A DNA stretch of 7,626 bases. Origin: a virus. Lineage: Duplodnaviria; Heunggongvirae; Uroviricota; Caudoviricetes. Shown piece after piece: positions 3,194 to 7,361 of this stretch (within the stretch, counting starts at the first letter, position 1; the number at the start of each line of letters is the position of its first letter). The stretch lies in the IMG/VR virus record IMGVR_UViG_2778261276_000006. One strand, 5' to 3'. Below the pieces are notes generated by a model. That model saw only the letters and a program-made list of their open reading frames with translations, had not been told where the DNA came from and ran no database searches. The position numbers were made by a program, and so were the translations under genes.

Positions 3194-3356
3194 GATTCCT
3201 CCTTGCTGCCAGTCGCAACCATTTTTTATCAACCAGGCTGGCGGTATACCCTAGCAGTGTTGGTATTTCGGATGGCTTCAGCTCAGGCTTACGCTTACGA
3301 CGATTTGGTACTCTGTAGATGTGTCCGTTCATGACCCGAATAAGCGGTGTAGTCAT
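3186..3356 (-). CDS. ninE: NinE (56 aa)
   Basis: [59 protein letters not shown] 3356-3354 with AGGAGG 4 nt upstream; overlaps the ybcN stop by 1 nt (TAATG). The 3' end overlaps the ybcO start by 8 nt. Confidence 0.85.
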   Translation of the reverse strand: MTTPLIRVMNGHIYRVPNRRKRKPELKPSEIPTLLGYTASLVDKKWLRLAARRNHG

Positions 3357-3811
3357 TACGCCTCCTGCTTGTCGCGCAGCAGCTGGAACTCGCAGCTCTG
3401 TGGAATAGTCAGGTGGCAACCAATATTCATCGCCCAGGCTTCAACCTTACACAGGAAGACATACATCTCTCCGGTATCAAGATCGGAGGTATGGCGTAAC
3501 GACTGGATAGTGGTGATATCACCGGTTACGACATCAACCAGGTCTTTGGTTTCATAACCGAGATATGTGTGTTTGAGAGCATCTTTTACCCAAGCTGGAG
3601 TGGCGAACGTTTTACCCCTGCTGATGAGGTATTCACTGATTTCGCTGTACCACATGTGGCTGAGTGCATTCTGGGAAAGACTGCGTCTCTCGCGCCACGG
3701 TTTAAGCACCATGCGAAAGCATTTGCCGTCCTCCAGATAAGGCTGGATCTGCCGACCGATAGCGGTGAAGTTACCGCGATGCAATTTGATACCATCTTGT
3801 GGGAGGTTCAC
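3356..3811 (-). CDS. ybcN: YbcN (151 aa), DLP12 nin-region protein reported as DNA base-flipping protein
   Basis: ORF track protein [30 protein letters not shown]... recognised as YbcN. GTG start 3811-3809 with GGAGGTG SD 4 nt upstream. Confidence 0.9.
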
Positions 3812-3909
3812 GCTTCACCTCCGCAGAGATCAAACGTTGGATGCAAGATATCGCAGGTGCATTTCTGCATCTGTGACTGGTTGAAAGGTGTTCTGATTGT
3901 CGTTTGCAC
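3808..3909 (-). CDS. ylcH: Small ORF, YlcH-like (33 aa), translationally coupled to ybcN
   Basis: Hand translation: (GTG)[33 protein letters not shown], then TGA overlapping the ybcN GTG (GTGA). GAGGGGA SD 6 nt upstream of the GTG at 3909-3907. Position matches ylcH upstream of ybcN in DLP12. Identity by position and length only. Confidence 0.4.
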
Positions 3910-4051
3910 TTTGAGTCCCCTCAAAGCGCAGAAGTCACCGGAGTTGTTCAGGCTCCGATGACATGATTATGGCGAGTTGATTATGATGAATCAATAGGTT
4001 CTTATGTCAAATGAACACTAGATTCAAAGGAGGGTAACAATTATCATAGCC

Positions 4052-4069
4052 AATGAGATTAATCTCATT
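4052..4069. promoter_or_regulatory. 18-bp perfect palindrome AATGAGATTAATCTCATT, candidate operator upstream of the 472-aa gene
   Basis: Read directly; centred about 27 nt upstream of the ATG at 4087, just 5' of the AAGGA SD (4076-4080). Confidence 0.3.
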
Positions 4070-4086
4070 TTTAATAAGGAAATTTC

Positions 4087-5505
4087 ATGAAATATTTCTC
4101 AACTGGTTTTTATGTTTCAAACTCCACATCTCTAGCTGAGATCTTTAATGAATGTTTTTCTTGGGTAAACGACTCACCACATACAACTTTTATTCCAGCA
4201 CAATTAGTATGTGATTATAAAAGCGAGGAGTACTTCATAGAGTCTAAAAATGAAAGAATTGATATAATAAATTATAAAAACAAAGATACTAGTTTAGGCT
4301 GTTTTAGGTATTCGAAAATATCTGAGCCACACAAATGGGTAACAGATATTTCAATTAATAAAAATCTCAAAACTGATACCATGTGGATTCAGGTGGAATC
4401 TAGCGTTGTAAGCCAAGATGCAGCTTATCTAGCCCCGCAACCTAAGAAACCATTAGTTGTTATGAGATTGATTGATAAATTTCCTGGTGGTCTTGATGAT
4501 ATTTTCAAGGTGTCAGTCGAACCTCATTCCTTAGATGATACTGATGAACATTTAAATATAGCAGCTAAAGTTATAAATGGTGAAACTGACAACAGACTAC
4601 CAATAATATACGTTAGCTCCAAGTATTTTTTTAATGAACATGCTCACAATATCATCCCAGAACGCCTTGCAAGAAAGGTATGCGGATTAGCACATGTATT
4701 AATTGAGCCTAGCAATAGACTATTTTCTACTAAGCTAAAAAATGAGACAAATGCTAAAAATGCCTATGCTGGTGCTGTTGGTATCTATTGGCCACGGGGT
4801 CAAAATATCAGTTTTTATCGCCGTGGTGAGAAAACCGCAAAAGAATTTGAAGATGAGTTATTTGATGATGTTGTAAGAGCTACGACTACAATGGCTCCTG
4901 TCTCAGATAGTGGATGGAGTGAGATACAAACCAGAAAAACGAAAGACTCTATTAACTCACTCAAAGAAAGAGGAGAATACACACGCGAACTGATGGCGCT
5001 TTACGAAGCCGATAATGTTGCGAAAGATGACCAAATAGAAGATCTTAAGCATAAGATCTCCTCTTTAGAGCACAGAGTACGCACTCTTCAATCACAAGCT
5101 TCAGCCCAAGGAAGCATTGTGCTTAATGCTGGTGAAGAGACTGACTTTTTTGATGGAGAAATCAAAAATATAATTATTGACGCACTAAAAACTGCCATAA
5201 AAAATAAAAATGAATTTGGTAGAAGCTACCATAGCTTATCATCCCTAATTGCCAATAATGAATACAATAAAGAAACCGAGAGTCGCCGCCAATTACTTAA
5301 AAGGACTTTAACAGGTTACAGAAGCATGGATAGCGCAACACAAAGAAATTTAAAGGACTTAGGTTTCAGTGCGTCAAGCGATGGAAAACACTGGAAGTTA
5401 ACATATAATGAAGACCCTCGATATTCCTATATTTTACCTAAAACAGGAAGTGACCACAGAGGTTCTTTAAATGCTATCTCGGATATAGCAAACATTATTT
5501 TCTAA
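4087..5505 (+). CDS. Hypothetical protein, 472 aa, unassigned family; candidate prophage accessory / anti-phage defence gene
   Basis: Long uninterrupted ORF in AT-rich DNA, where stop codons are frequent. ATG with AAGGA SD 6 nt upstream. No signal peptide or obvious transmembrane segment, no Walker A motif. Central region predicted helical/coiled-coil (…EDLKHKISSLEHRVRTLQSQASAQ…). Followed by a hairpin terminator. Confidence 0.85.
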   Translation: MKYFSTGFYVSNSTSLAEIFNECFSWVNDSPHTTFIPAQLVCDYKSEEYFIESKNERIDIINYKNKDTSLGCFRYSKISEPHKWVTDISINKNLKTDTMWIQVESSVVSQDAAYLAPQPKKPLVVMRLIDKFPGGLDDIFKVSVEPHSLDDTDEHLNIAAKVINGETDNRLPIIYVSSKYFFNEHAHNIIPERLARKVCGLAHVLIEPSNRLFSTKLKNETNAKNAYAGAVGIYWPRGQNISFYRRGEKTAKEFEDELFDDVVRATTTMAPVSDSGWSEIQTRKTKDSINSLKERGEYTRELMALYEADNVAKDDQIEDLKHKISSLEHRVRTLQSQASAQGSIVLNAGEETDFFDGEIKNIIIDALKTAIKNKNEFGRSYHSLSSLIANNEYNKETESRRQLLKRTLTGYRSMDSATQRNLKDLGFSASSDGKHWKLTYNEDPRYSYILPKTGSDHRGSLNAISDIANIIF

Positions 5506-5512
5506 TAAATTT

Positions 5513-5548
5513 CAATAGCACTCACAAATGAGTGCTATTGTTGCCACT
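5513..5548 (+). terminator. Hairpin terminator between convergent cargo ORFs
   Basis: Perfect 12-bp stem caatagcactca (5513-5524) / tgagtgctattg (5529-5540) with 4-nt loop caaa, 8 nt after the TAA of the 472-aa gene. The 3' flank TTGCC is only weakly U-rich. Confidence 0.5.
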
Positions 5549-5556
5549 GAATTACT

Positions 5557-5811
5557 CTATTTAAATTCAACTTTTATCCCTTTGTTTAGCAGGGCATCAG
5601 AAACTGCCTTTTTTGTAACATTTATCCCTGCAAGCAATGCTTTATGCATTGGTCCCTTAAAAATCTCTACTTCTTCTTCAGTGAGTTTAGGCAATGTAAT
5701 ATAAATAACATCTTTCATCTGCTTGTTTTTATAGCATGAGCTTCTTGTGTGCTTACAATCGATATTTTCTTTATTTCCCAAAACATCATCCCCTTTATAA
5801 TTCAGTTCCAC
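5557..5811 (-). CDS. Questionable small ORF (84 aa from a GTG; shorter from internal ATGs), hypothetical
   Basis: Open frame in AT-rich DNA, convergent with the 472-aa gene. No convincing SD before the GTG at 5811 or the first internal ATG. C-terminal part (…MHKALLAGINVTKKAVSDALLNKGIKVEFK) is faintly reminiscent of a small DNA-binding fold. May be non-coding. Confidence 0.3.
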   Translation of the reverse strand: MELNYKGDDVLGNKENIDCKHTRSSCYKNKQMKDVIYITLPKLTEEEVEIFKGPMHKALLAGINVTKKAVSDALLNKGIKVEFK

Positions 5812-5869
5812 ACATCAATTATTTAGTTATCACGAATGTCGTAAAACTAAAATTAGTAACAATAATTGC

Positions 5870-6163
5870 TCATACCCACTCTCTTCCATATAAAGCCAAC
5901 ACCCGCTTCATCGCGGCACTTTGACGACACTCCTTAAAAATCAGATTCGTGCTCACCTTTCCTTCCCGTTCTTCTCTGGTAGCGAACCGGTAATACACCG
6001 TTCGCCAGACCTTACCATCAACGACCAGGATTCCTGCCCGCGCCATTTTAGCCGCAGCCTGATTTATGCTGGTTACGGTTGCGCCTGTTACCGCGGCAAC
6101 GTCCTGCGCACAGAAGTTCTTATGAGTCCCCAGGTAATGAATAATTGCCTCTTTGCCCGTCAT
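5870..6163 (-). CDS. ren: Ren (97 aa)
   Basis: MTGKEAIIHYLGTH...AAKMARAG...RFATREEREGK... recognised as lambda Ren. ATG overlaps the P stop (ATGA). Confidence 0.88.
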   Translation of the reverse strand: MTGKEAIIHYLGTHKNFCAQDVAAVTGATVTSINQAAAKMARAGILVVDGKVWRTVYYRFATREEREGKVSTNLIFKECRQSAAMKRVLALYGREWV

Positions 6164-6861
6164 ACACTTGCTCCTTTCAGCCCAAACTTCGCTTTGATTT
6201 CTGCGATCTTCGCCAGAGACTGAACACGATTAAGCGGTCTCCCGCCCATAACAGGAAGTTGTTTTACTGGTTCAGGTATCGCCTCACCACGGTTAATTCG
6301 CGCTGTCATACAGGCCAGTTCATCGGCAGCCTTGCGCCGTAATTCCGCATCAGTCAGCGCATTGGCCCGCATGTTCTGATACAGGTTGGTAACCAGCCAG
6401 TAGTGCGCGTTTGATTTCCACGGATAAGACTCTGCATCCGGATACAGGCCACGTTTCCGGCAATACTCGTAAACCATATCAACCAGCTCGCTGGCGTTTG
6501 GCAGCCCGGCGGTAACGGATGCTTCTTCCCGGCACCAGGCAACAAACTGCCCGGGTGATGGCAGGAATGGTCGATTCTGCCGACGGGCTACGCGCATTCC
6601 TGCATTAACCTGTTCCATCGTGGTGATCCCGTTTTCCCGGAAAGCCAGAACCCACTGGCGGCGGATTTCGTTCAGTTCGTTCTGGTCCCGGTTAGCCAGG
6701 CTCGCCGGGAAAGTTGCCAGTAACTGGCTGAACACACCATTGATGATCTGCGCTACCTGTTGTACCTGCGGCTTTTCTTCGTACTGTTCCGGCATGTTGT
6801 TGGCGATCCGGCGCATCTGCTCACGGTCAAAGTTAACCATCTGTGCGGCGATGTTTTTCAT
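6160..6861 (-). CDS. P: Replication protein P (DnaB-loading), 233 aa
   Basis: Near-identical to lambda P as recalled (MKNIAAQMVNFDREQMRRIANNMPEQY...KAKFGLKGASV). GGTGGAG SD; ATG overlaps the O stop (ATGA). Confidence 0.95.
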   Translation of the reverse strand: MKNIAAQMVNFDREQMRRIANNMPEQYEEKPQVQQVAQIINGVFSQLLATFPASLANRDQNELNEIRRQWVLAFRENGITTMEQVNAGMRVARRQNRPFLPSPGQFVAWCREEASVTAGLPNASELVDMVYEYCRKRGLYPDAESYPWKSNAHYWLVTNLYQNMRANALTDAELRRKAADELACMTARINRGEAIPEPVKQLPVMGGRPLNRVQSLAKIAEIKAKFGLKGASV

Positions 6862-7361
6862 AGCTCCACCCCGTAAATCCAGTCAGTGTTCGTCAGGTCG
6901 AGTTTTGGTGTGCCGGCTGTCACGCCAGCCTGTTGCTTGTTTCGGTTGATTTCGAGCTGGGTCCACTTGTCGCGGAGTTTGGCTGGACTCAGCACGTTAC
7001 CGGACCAGAAGTTGTCCTGGCATGCCCAGCGGAACAGCACGCACATGTCGCGGTGGTTACGTCCGTCACGTTCACGCATCAGGCGGATATCGTTAGCCCA
7101 CCTTGCAAAATTCGGTTTTCTGGCTGATGGCGCGATGGTCTTCACCATGTCAAACATCCACTCTGCGGCGGTCAGGTCTTCTGCTGTCCCCCACTTGCTG
7201 CCACTCTGAATTGCAGCATCCGGTTTCACCACAGGAAGGTCGTTTTCTGGCTGGTCAGAGGATTCGCCAGAATTCTCGGACGAAAAAGGTTTTATATTGT
7301 CTTTTGTTAGTTTGTCTTTTGTGTTTACCTGATTCGGGTAAGCGCCTTTAGGCGCGATCAC
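6858..7361 (-). pseudogene. O: Replication initiator O, C-terminal fragment only (N-terminal iteron-binding domain missing)
   Basis: Track protein matches the lambda O C-terminal half from about the last iteron onward (...YPNQ..SSENSGESSDQPENDL.VVKPDAAIQSGSKWGTAEDLTAAEWMFDMVKT...WIYGVEL). The frame opens at a GTG (7361-7359) three codons after an in-frame TAG (7370-7368). Upstream minus-strand DNA does not encode an O N-terminus in any frame. Confidence 0.65.

What the first reader, a model, noticed from the sequence alone, without database searches (positions are those of the whole stretch)
4052..4069. 18-bp perfect palindrome immediately upstream of the cargo gene start
AATGAGATTAATCTCATT is a perfect inverted repeat centred about 27 nt upstream of the ATG and abutting the SD. 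A perfect palindrome of this length in a promoter-proximal position looks like a dimeric repressor operator, or a structure sequestering the 5' UTR. It suggests the cargo gene is regulated, possibly autoregulated or by the small neighbouring ORF.
Basis: seen in the sequence. Interest (0 to 1): 0.5.

Follow-up and report, generated by a model that had tools for sequence, protein, structure and literature searches.

The report
Likely RcsB-type operator on defence-gene promoter
The 18-bp palindrome is real, and its conserved core (A-TGAGA-N4-TCTCA-T) most likely is a binding site for a host stress-response regulator dimer (best candidate RcsB) sitting on the transcription start of a prophage-borne defence-like gene; this is an ordinary kind of operator, though in a fairly interesting place.

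Summary
AATGAGATTAATCTCATT is at 4052-4069 and is the only 9+9 perfect palindrome in the window (chance about 0.03 for the window, 0.002 for the intergenic stretch). The window is a DLP12/82-like lambdoid prophage. The palindrome lies inside a low-GC cargo cassette between ren and ylcH/ybcN, upstream of a 472-aa HEC-07-like protein with a HicA-like C-terminus.

In 10 orthologous lineages, from lambdoid, P2-like and other Enterobacterales elements, the two arms are kept at the same distance from the ATG. The central 4 nt and the flanks vary freely, and one E. coli allele already has GTAA in the centre.

The core TGAGA-TTAA-TCTCA matches the published RcsB homodimer box TN(G/A)GA-N4-TC(T/C)NA perfectly. 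Of 9 substitutions in orthologues, 8 fall on states the box tolerates. One orthologue (L199) keeps the box but loses the RNA hairpin.

A conserved promoter (TAGATT-17-TATCAT) places the box at about +1 to +14, a repressing position.

Best reading (about 0.5): an operator for a host LuxR/FixJ-type dimer, probably RcsB. Main rival: a 5'-terminal mRNA hairpin. I found no support for autoregulation, control by the 84-aa ORF, or SD sequestration. Nothing here has been tested experimentally.

The parts
4052..4069 (.). 18-bp perfect palindrome AATGAGATTAATCTCATT. The conserved unit is 7-nt arms (4052-4058 and 4063-4069) around a free 4-nt centre (4059-4062).
   Evidence: Orthologue comparison. The centre varies even within E. 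coli.
4054..4067 (.). Core TGAGA-TTAA-TCTCA, a perfect match to the RcsB homodimer box TN(G/A)GA-N4-TC(T/C)NA. Proposed operator.
   Evidence: Pattern match. Box definition from PMC7913699. The box sits at -31 to -34 from the ATG in 10 lineages; 10 of 11 variants match with 0 mismatches.
4019..4024 (+). Predicted -35 hexamer TAGATT of the cargo gene promoter.
   Evidence: Weight-matrix scan. (C)TAGAT(T/C) is kept in the window, L002, L203, L204, L196 and L004, and L172 has TAGAAC at the same place; spacer sequences are unrelated but always 17 nt.
4042..4047 (+). Predicted -10 hexamer TATCAT, which puts the transcription start at about 4053-4055.
   Evidence: TATCAT, TATTAT or TACCAT occupy the same position in 7 lineages. 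No transcript data are available.
4076..4080 (+). Shine-Dalgarno AAGGA, 6 nt before the ATG. It is unpaired in the predicted fold.
   Evidence: AAGGA is conserved in orthologue leaders.
4087..5505 (+). 472-aa cargo gene. It is HEC-07-like, with an N-terminal beta domain, a thioredoxin-like domain and a coiled coil, plus a HicA-like C-terminal domain. Candidate anti-phage gene.
   Evidence: PADLOC HEC-07 E = 1.2e-9. AF2 models. Thioredoxin matches. HicA matches. Location in mobile-element hotspots.
5513..5540 (.). Perfect 12+12 inverted repeat with a 4-nt loop just after the stop codon. Terminator-like end of the cassette, between convergent ORFs.

Best explanation
The palindrome is the E. coli version of a conserved 16-bp inverted repeat, A-TGAGA-N4-TCTCA-T, that moves with the 472-aa gene as part of a small promoter cassette. 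I propose it is read as double-stranded DNA by a dimer of a host LuxR/FixJ-type response regulator. RcsB, the output regulator of the Rcs envelope-stress phosphorelay of Enterobacterales, is the best candidate. The box begins 6 nt after the predicted -10 hexamer, so it covers about +1 to +14. A bound dimer would therefore block open-complex formation or promoter escape and repress the defence-like gene when Rcs is active. Shown here: the sequence, its conservation pattern, its match to the published box, and the conserved promoter hexamers. Inferred: the transcription start, the identity of the binding protein, and the sign of regulation. The RNA hairpin that a transcribed palindrome would form is treated as a by-product.
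For: (1) Selection acts on the arms and not the centre. Across 9 independent lineages with 65-76% protein identity, the arms are nearly invariant, while the 4-nt centre and the nucleotides between the -10 and the arms are randomised. An E. coli allele also has a centre SNP.
(2) The core matches TN(G/A)GA-N4-TC(T/C)NA, the box defined from RcsB-DNA crystal structures and EMSA (PMC7913699). L198 (TAGGAAACATCTTA) differs from the crystallised flhDC site TAGGAAAAATCTTA by one spacer base.
(3) Of 9 arm substitutions, 8 fall on N or R/Y-compatible states (P about 2-4e-4). The most variable pair is the N/N' position, which is one of only two G-C pairs of the would-be stem.
(4) L199 keeps the box (TAAGATTTTTCCCA) at -33 but has two A.C mismatches on the sense strand and no predicted hairpin. 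L203 has a G.A mismatch at an N position. No single RNA strand keeps pairing in all lineages.
(5) The box is always within the RNA polymerase footprint, but its distance to the -10 varies: a 6-nt gap in the E. coli type, 3 nt in L199, and overlap in L198. This suits an operator but not a 5'-end hairpin.
(6) The cassette occurs in lambdoid, P2-like and other elements, so the regulator is most simply a host protein. Every lineage shown to carry the box and assignable to a host is an Enterobacterales genome; several others are unassigned metagenome or viral contigs.
(7) In the published regulon analysis, RcsB sites downstream of the transcription start are associated with negative regulation, and boxes occur in 5' UTRs such as flhDC.
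Against: There are no binding, transcript or expression data. The box is degenerate: 0.47 matches are expected by chance in this window, and 35% of shuffles have at least one. I matched the motif after seeing the palindrome. The A and T flanking the box are also invariant, which the published box does not require. L204 has a half-site (TGAGG) that reduced binding in EMSA. The closest orthologue (Edwardsiella, 81% identity) and the P4-satellite alleles lack the element altogether. L208 carries a box in an activator-like position upstream of the -35, so the sign of regulation is uncertain. Other LuxR-family regulators have similar half-sites.
Confidence: 0.5

Rival explanations
1. A 5'-terminal mRNA stem-loop. 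Transcription starts at about 4052-4054, so the mRNA begins with a 7-bp hairpin with a 4-nt loop. Such a hairpin would protect against 5'-end-dependent decay, as the ompA leader does, or would tune translation.
For: The predicted start coincides with the first arm. The hairpin is predicted in the window, L004, L006 and L196. Five one-sided changes give G.U on the sense strand and one pair changes G-C to A-U. The A..T pairs outside the RcsB box are conserved.
Against: The stem is weak (-5.1 kcal/mol, z = -0.05 against shuffles). The covariation test is no better than shuffles: 95.2% versus 94.7% paired, reached in 240 of 500 shuffles. L199 and L203 break the stem but keep the box. In L198, and possibly in the Pantoea-type loci, the best -10 overlaps the left arm, which would then not be transcribed. 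No Rfam family matches (best hit 18.7 bits against a gathering score of 41.2).
Confidence: 0.17
2. An operator for another protein: autoregulation by the 472-aa protein, the 84-aa ORF product, or an unidentified host or phage repressor.
For: The site has dimer-like symmetry and overlaps the promoter. The element travels with the gene, as an autoregulatory site would.
Confidence: 0.13
3. No function: an AT-rich chance palindrome, or a relic of cassette recombination.
For: About 3% of window shuffles give a 9-nt arm. The Edwardsiella and P4-type alleles function without it.
Against: The arms are conserved in 9 lineages whose surrounding non-coding sequence is otherwise unalignable, and always at the same distance from the ATG.
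Confidence: 0.1
4. An intrinsic terminator or insulator that stops read-through into the cargo gene or into the antisense phage early transcript.
For: In the window the hairpin is followed by TTTTT on the + strand.
Against: The terminator scan does not report it, and the stem has only 2 G-C pairs. The T-run is lost in VCSW7 and is absent after the stem in L004, L006 and L182. There is no T-run on the minus strand.
Confidence: 0.03

Closest known systems
RcsB homodimer box (TN(G/A)GA-N4-TC(T/C)NA), e.g. the flhDC and rprA sites
   Same: The half-site sequence, 4-bp spacing and two-fold symmetry are identical. Orthologue variation is confined to positions RcsB does not read. Like flhDC, the site lies in the start/5'-UTR region, where published sites correlate with repression.
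   Different: Binding has not been shown. The site is perfectly symmetric, whereas known sites are pseudo-palindromes. It has extra conserved A/T flanks. It lies on a mobile prophage cargo gene rather than a core-genome regulon member.
RcsAB box (TaAGaatatTCcta)
   Same: All five capitalised positions match. L182 (TGAGAATATTCTTA) and the L208 site (TAAGAATAATCCTA) are 12 and 13 of 14.
   Different: RcsAB boxes are usually far upstream of capsule promoters and act positively. RcsA dependence cannot be judged from sequence.
Operators overlapping the transcription start (lac O1 type)
   Same: A symmetric site covering about +1 to +14 would block RNA polymerase (established knowledge).
   Different: The regulator family is different, and the start site here is only predicted.
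5'-terminal stabilising stem-loops (ompA leader type)
   Same: A hairpin would lie within about 2 nt of the predicted 5' end, upstream of a free SD.
   Different: The stem is weak, shows no significant covariation, and is broken in two orthologues.
HEC-07 candidate defence protein (Payne et al. 2024 preprint)
   Same: PADLOC hit at E = 1.2e-9 over residues 82-337. There is a thioredoxin-like middle domain and a small C-terminal RNase-toxin-like domain.
   Different: The C-terminal domain resembles HicA, not RelE. Only the middle of the profile aligns. Defence activity has not been tested for this family.

Membership tests
RcsB box (operator of the Rcs regulon) | Sequence TN(G/A)GA-N4-TC(T/C)NA | tested here: met
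   4054-4067 TGAGATTAATCTCA has 0 mismatches. Definition from PMC7913699.
RcsB box (operator of the Rcs regulon) | Read-out positions conserved and free positions variable among orthologous sites | tested here: met
   10 of 11 variants have 0 mismatches; 8 of 9 substitutions fall on tolerated states, P about 2-4e-4.
RcsB box (operator of the Rcs regulon) | Position relative to the promoter compatible with a known regulatory class | tested here: inconclusive
   The predicted promoter puts the box at about +1 to +14, a repression class. The start site is not mapped, and L208 has a box at an activator-like position.
RcsB box (operator of the Rcs regulon) | Bound by RcsB, with expression dependent on rcsB | not testable with these tools
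   Needs EMSA or footprinting, ChIP, and reporter assays.
RcsB box (operator of the Rcs regulon) | The host encodes the Rcs phosphorelay | not tested
   Established knowledge for E. coli and Enterobacterales generally. Every lineage shown to carry the box and assignable to a host is an Enterobacterales genome; several others are unassigned metagenome or viral contigs.
Structured 5' leader RNA (stabilising stem-loop) | Base pairing maintained by covariation on the transcribed strand | tested here: not met
   No excess over shuffles. L199 and L203 break the stem, and no single strand pairs in all lineages.
Structured 5' leader RNA (stabilising stem-loop) | Stability above background, or a known RNA family | tested here: not met
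   z = -0.05 in the window. No Rfam match at threshold.
Intrinsic terminator | G+C-rich stem followed by a conserved U tract | tested here: not met
   Not reported by the scan. The stem has 2 G-C pairs, and the U tract is not conserved.
Prophage immunity operator (CI/Cro type) | Repeated copies of the site in the immunity region of the same prophage | tested here: not met
   Single copy in 42 kb that includes the cI/cro region.
HEC-07 (for the downstream gene) | AdoMetDC-like domain, thioredoxin-like domain and C-terminal RelE-like RNase | tested here: inconclusive
   Partial profile hit and a thioredoxin-like fold, but the C-terminus is HicA-like. Description of HEC-07.

The most novel reading that the evidence does not exclude
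A portable promoter-plus-RcsB-box cassette wires a mobile, HicA-domain, HEC-07-like abortive-infection gene directly into the host Rcs envelope-stress pathway. Surface damage, including damage caused by phage attack, would then switch this intracellular defence down (or up). The same plug-in operator would keep the gene under host control as it moves between lambdoid prophages, P2-like phages and other elements.
Probability: 0.3. Interest if true: 0.6.

Novelty: new member of a known kind. Interest (0 to 1): 0.35.

Why it matters
If RcsB binds here, this would be a concrete case of a host envelope-stress regulator directly controlling a horizontally mobile candidate defence or toxin gene. The operator would be carried inside the cassette, so regulation would survive transfer between elements. 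That bears on how costly abortive-infection genes are kept quiet. It also fits the idea, reported for Serratia CRISPR-Cas (from my own knowledge; I did not retrieve the paper), that Rcs trades surface defence against intracellular immunity. It gives a simple test: one EMSA and one reporter assay. If RcsB does not bind, the site is just one more promoter-proximal inverted repeat.

Tried and rejected
- **Exact-pattern scan of viral contigs** for AATGAGA-N4-TCTCATT. It returned 120 or more stretches; only 3 of the 120 carry the 472-aa gene. The rest were not examined further and were treated as presumed chance matches, so this says nothing about a regulon.
- **Covariation test on the hairpin**. 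Uninformative, because there is too little variation.
- **Search for the leader upstream of other E. coli genes**. It is found only in the same 24 genomes.
- **RcsB pattern elsewhere in the prophage**. Two hits against 2.2 expected, so no enrichment.
- **Upstream ORF starting at the ATG in the left arm.** Its length and frame are not conserved (read from the sequences), so I rejected it.
- **Fur, CRP, LexA and FNR-type boxes.** Spacing or half-sites do not fit. This was a by-eye comparison from memory, not a formal test.
- **Cruciform or recombination site.** The perfect symmetry is lost in PEC408, and the cassette boundary lies about 50 nt upstream.
- **Sequence search of the C-terminal domain against PDB**. 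Nothing found; only fold comparison pointed to HicA.
- **Rfam**. Only a chance-level hit to DUF2815 RNA.
- **Promoter assignment in the Pantoea-type loci** remains ambiguous (two candidates).

Full report
**Observation.** AATGAGATTAATCTCATT occupies 4052-4069 and is a perfect palindrome. It is the only palindrome with 9-nt arms in the window; the next longest have 7-nt arms. Markov shuffles reach 9-nt arms in 3.4% of windows, 1.5% of low-GC islands and 0.2% of 275-nt intergenic stretches. The centre is 26.5 nt before the ATG at 4087. The SD AAGGA (4076-4080) lies 6 nt beyond the palindrome, so it does not abut it.

**Context.** The window is a DLP12/phage-82-like lambdoid prophage whose early-right operon runs on the minus strand:
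- O (6858-7361), P (6160-6861) and ren (5870-6163);
- a low-GC island (about 4000-5860);
- ylcH/orf33, ybcN/ninB (3356-3811), ninE (annotated in the related loci), ybcO, rusA and Q;
- a porin gene on the + strand.

The island carries a 472-aa gene on the + strand (4087-5505) and a convergent 84-aa ORF. The island is present in 24 of 5426 complete E. coli genomes, always at this position. Homology to lambdoid phages that lack the cargo stops at about 3983-4004. The palindrome therefore belongs to the cargo.

**The gene.**
- Pfam finds nothing. PADLOC gives HEC-07 at E = 1.2e-9 over residues 82-337.
- HEC-07 is described as an AdoMetDC-like domain, a thioredoxin-like domain and a RelE-like RNase.
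- The AF2 model (pLDDT 83) has an N-terminal beta domain, a thioredoxin-like domain, a long coiled coil, a helical bundle and a C-terminal alpha-beta3-alpha unit.
- Homologues sit in the lambdoid ren/nin region, in P2-like phages, beside the integrase of P4-like satellites and in an ICE. This is typical of defence cargo.

**Comparative anatomy of the leader.** I collected upstream regions from genomes, metagenomes and viral contigs. The inverted repeat recurs at the same distance from the start codon in these lineages:

| Lineage | Left arm | Centre | Right arm |
|---|---|---|---|
| Window (E. coli) | AATGAGA | TTAA | TCTCATT |
| PEC408 (E. coli) | AATGAGA | GTAA | TCTCATT |
| L203 | AATGAGA | AAAA | TCTAATT |
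| L204 (P2-like) | AATGAGG | ATAG | TCTCATT |
| L196 | AATGGGA | ATAA | TCTCATT |
| L004 (Siccibacter) | AATGAGA | AAAC | TCTCATT |
| L198 | TATAGGA | AACA | TCTTATT |
| L006/L183 (Pantoea) | AATGAGA | ATAG | TCTTATT |
| L182 | AATGAGA | ATAT | TCTTATA |
| L199 | AATAAGA | TTTT | TCCCATA |

The arms are nearly invariant, while the centre and the flanks are randomised. The functional unit is therefore 7-4-7. The perfect 18-mer is an accident of the TTAA centre. The element is absent from the closest orthologue (Edwardsiella, 81% identity), where about 20 nt are replaced between conserved flanks. It is also absent from the P4-type and more distant alleles.

**Promoter.** A hexamer pair TAGATT-17-TATCAT (4019-4024 and 4042-4047) recurs at the same position in the window, L002, L203, L204, L196, L004 and L172, despite unrelated spacers. 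This predicts a start at about 4053-4055, the first bases of the repeat. In L199 the -10 ends 3 nt before the box. In L198 a 7-nt deletion makes the -10 overlap the left arm.

**What reads the repeat?** The core TGAGA-TTAA-TCTCA matches the RcsB homodimer box TN(G/A)GA-N4-TC(T/C)NA exactly. That box was defined from crystal structures and EMSA (PMC7913699).
- Ten of the eleven variants match with no mismatch. L204 has one mismatch, an AGG half-site that weakened but did not abolish binding in EMSA.
- Eight of nine substitutions fall on N or R/Y-compatible states (P about 2-4e-4).
- The most variable pair is the N/N' position, although it is one of only two G-C pairs of the putative stem.
- L199 keeps the box but has two A.C mismatches on the sense strand and no predicted hairpin. 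L203 has a G.A mismatch at N'. L196, L198, L006, L182 and L204 pair only on the sense strand, and L199 pairs only on the antisense strand.
- A formal pair count is no better than shuffles. The hairpin is weak (-5.1 kcal/mol, z = -0.05) and leaves the SD free.

These points favour recognition as duplex DNA by a symmetric LuxR/FixJ-type dimer over an RNA structure. Published RcsB sites downstream of the start are associated with repression.

**Caveats.**
- The box is degenerate: 0.47 matches are expected per window, and there is no enrichment in the prophage.
- I matched the motif after seeing the palindrome.
- The invariant A/T flanks are not explained by the box.
- The promoter and the start site are predictions only.
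- L208 has a near-consensus RcsAB-like box (TAAGAATAATCCTA; consensus) upstream of its -35-like motif, which suggests the opposite sign of regulation there.
- Related regulators share similar half-sites.

- Homologues of the C-terminal 53 aa of the 84-aa ORF occur in loci with the repeat (L002, L004, L203) and without it (L172, L207, L199 partly, L208). They are absent from other loci that have the repeat (L006, L182, L196, L198, L204).
- In L004 that segment is the end of a 166-aa ORF next to ren/P-like genes.
- The palindrome is unique in 42 kb of prophage, including the immunity region.
- The leader occurs only before this gene in E. coli.

**Verdict.** The best explanation is an RcsB-type operator at the transcription start (about 0.5). 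The rivals are a 5' mRNA hairpin (0.17), another DNA-binding protein (0.13), no function (0.1) and a terminator (0.03). This is a new member of a known kind, and moderately interesting because it would link the Rcs stress response to a mobile defence-like gene.

Noticed in passing
window 5513-5540: Perfect 12+12 inverted repeat (CAATAGCACTCA TTTG TGAGTGCTATTG) 8 nt after the stop codon of the 472-aa gene, between the convergent ORFs. It looks like a bidirectional terminator closing the cassette.
   Followed up: partly
window 4082-4093: ATTTCATGAAAT is a perfect 12-bp palindrome centred on the start codon. Its significance is unknown and it may be chance in AT-rich DNA.
   Followed up: no
window 5557-5811 (-): Only the C-terminal 53 aa or so of the 84-aa ORF is conserved. 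It lies convergent to the 472-aa gene in 7 other loci, and in L004 it is the end of a 166-aa ORF beside ren/P-like genes. One RefSeq record calls it PLD-like. There are no Pfam or PHROG hits.
   Followed up: partly
window 4087-5505; L166-L171, L172, L204, L207, L209, L214: The 472-aa family (HEC-07-like with a HicA-like C-terminus) sits in four classic cargo hotspots: lambdoid ren/nin, P2-like phages, P4-like satellites next to the integrase, and an ICE. It is widespread beyond Enterobacterales, including archaeal MAGs.
   Followed up: partly
window 3933-3994: The conserved lambdoid backbone just left of the cargo holds overlapping divergent promoter-like hexamers and an inverted repeat TTGATT-ATGATG-AATCAA (3967-3984). 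The phage 82 record annotates a putative -35/-10 and a 'possible regulator-binding site' here on the minus strand.
   Followed up: no
L208, 61 nt before the start codon: TAAGAATAATCCTA, 13 of 14 to the RcsAB consensus, lies directly upstream of a CTAGAC -35-like motif. This is an activator-like position, unlike the start-site position in the window.
   Followed up: no
L199 2221-2296 versus window 3904-3979: The left flank is 97% identical while the cargo gene is only about 69% identical. Divergent alleles of the cassette are therefore exchanged at the same prophage hotspot.
   Followed up: no
E. coli G4/9 (hit H1), equivalent of window 3800-5900: An IS3-family transposase is inserted within this stretch in one otherwise 99.9% identical genome.
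   Followed up: no
window 4031-4089: Sub-threshold Rfam hit to DUF2815 RNA (18.7 bits against a gathering score of 41.2, E = 0.73). I treated it as chance.
   Followed up: no
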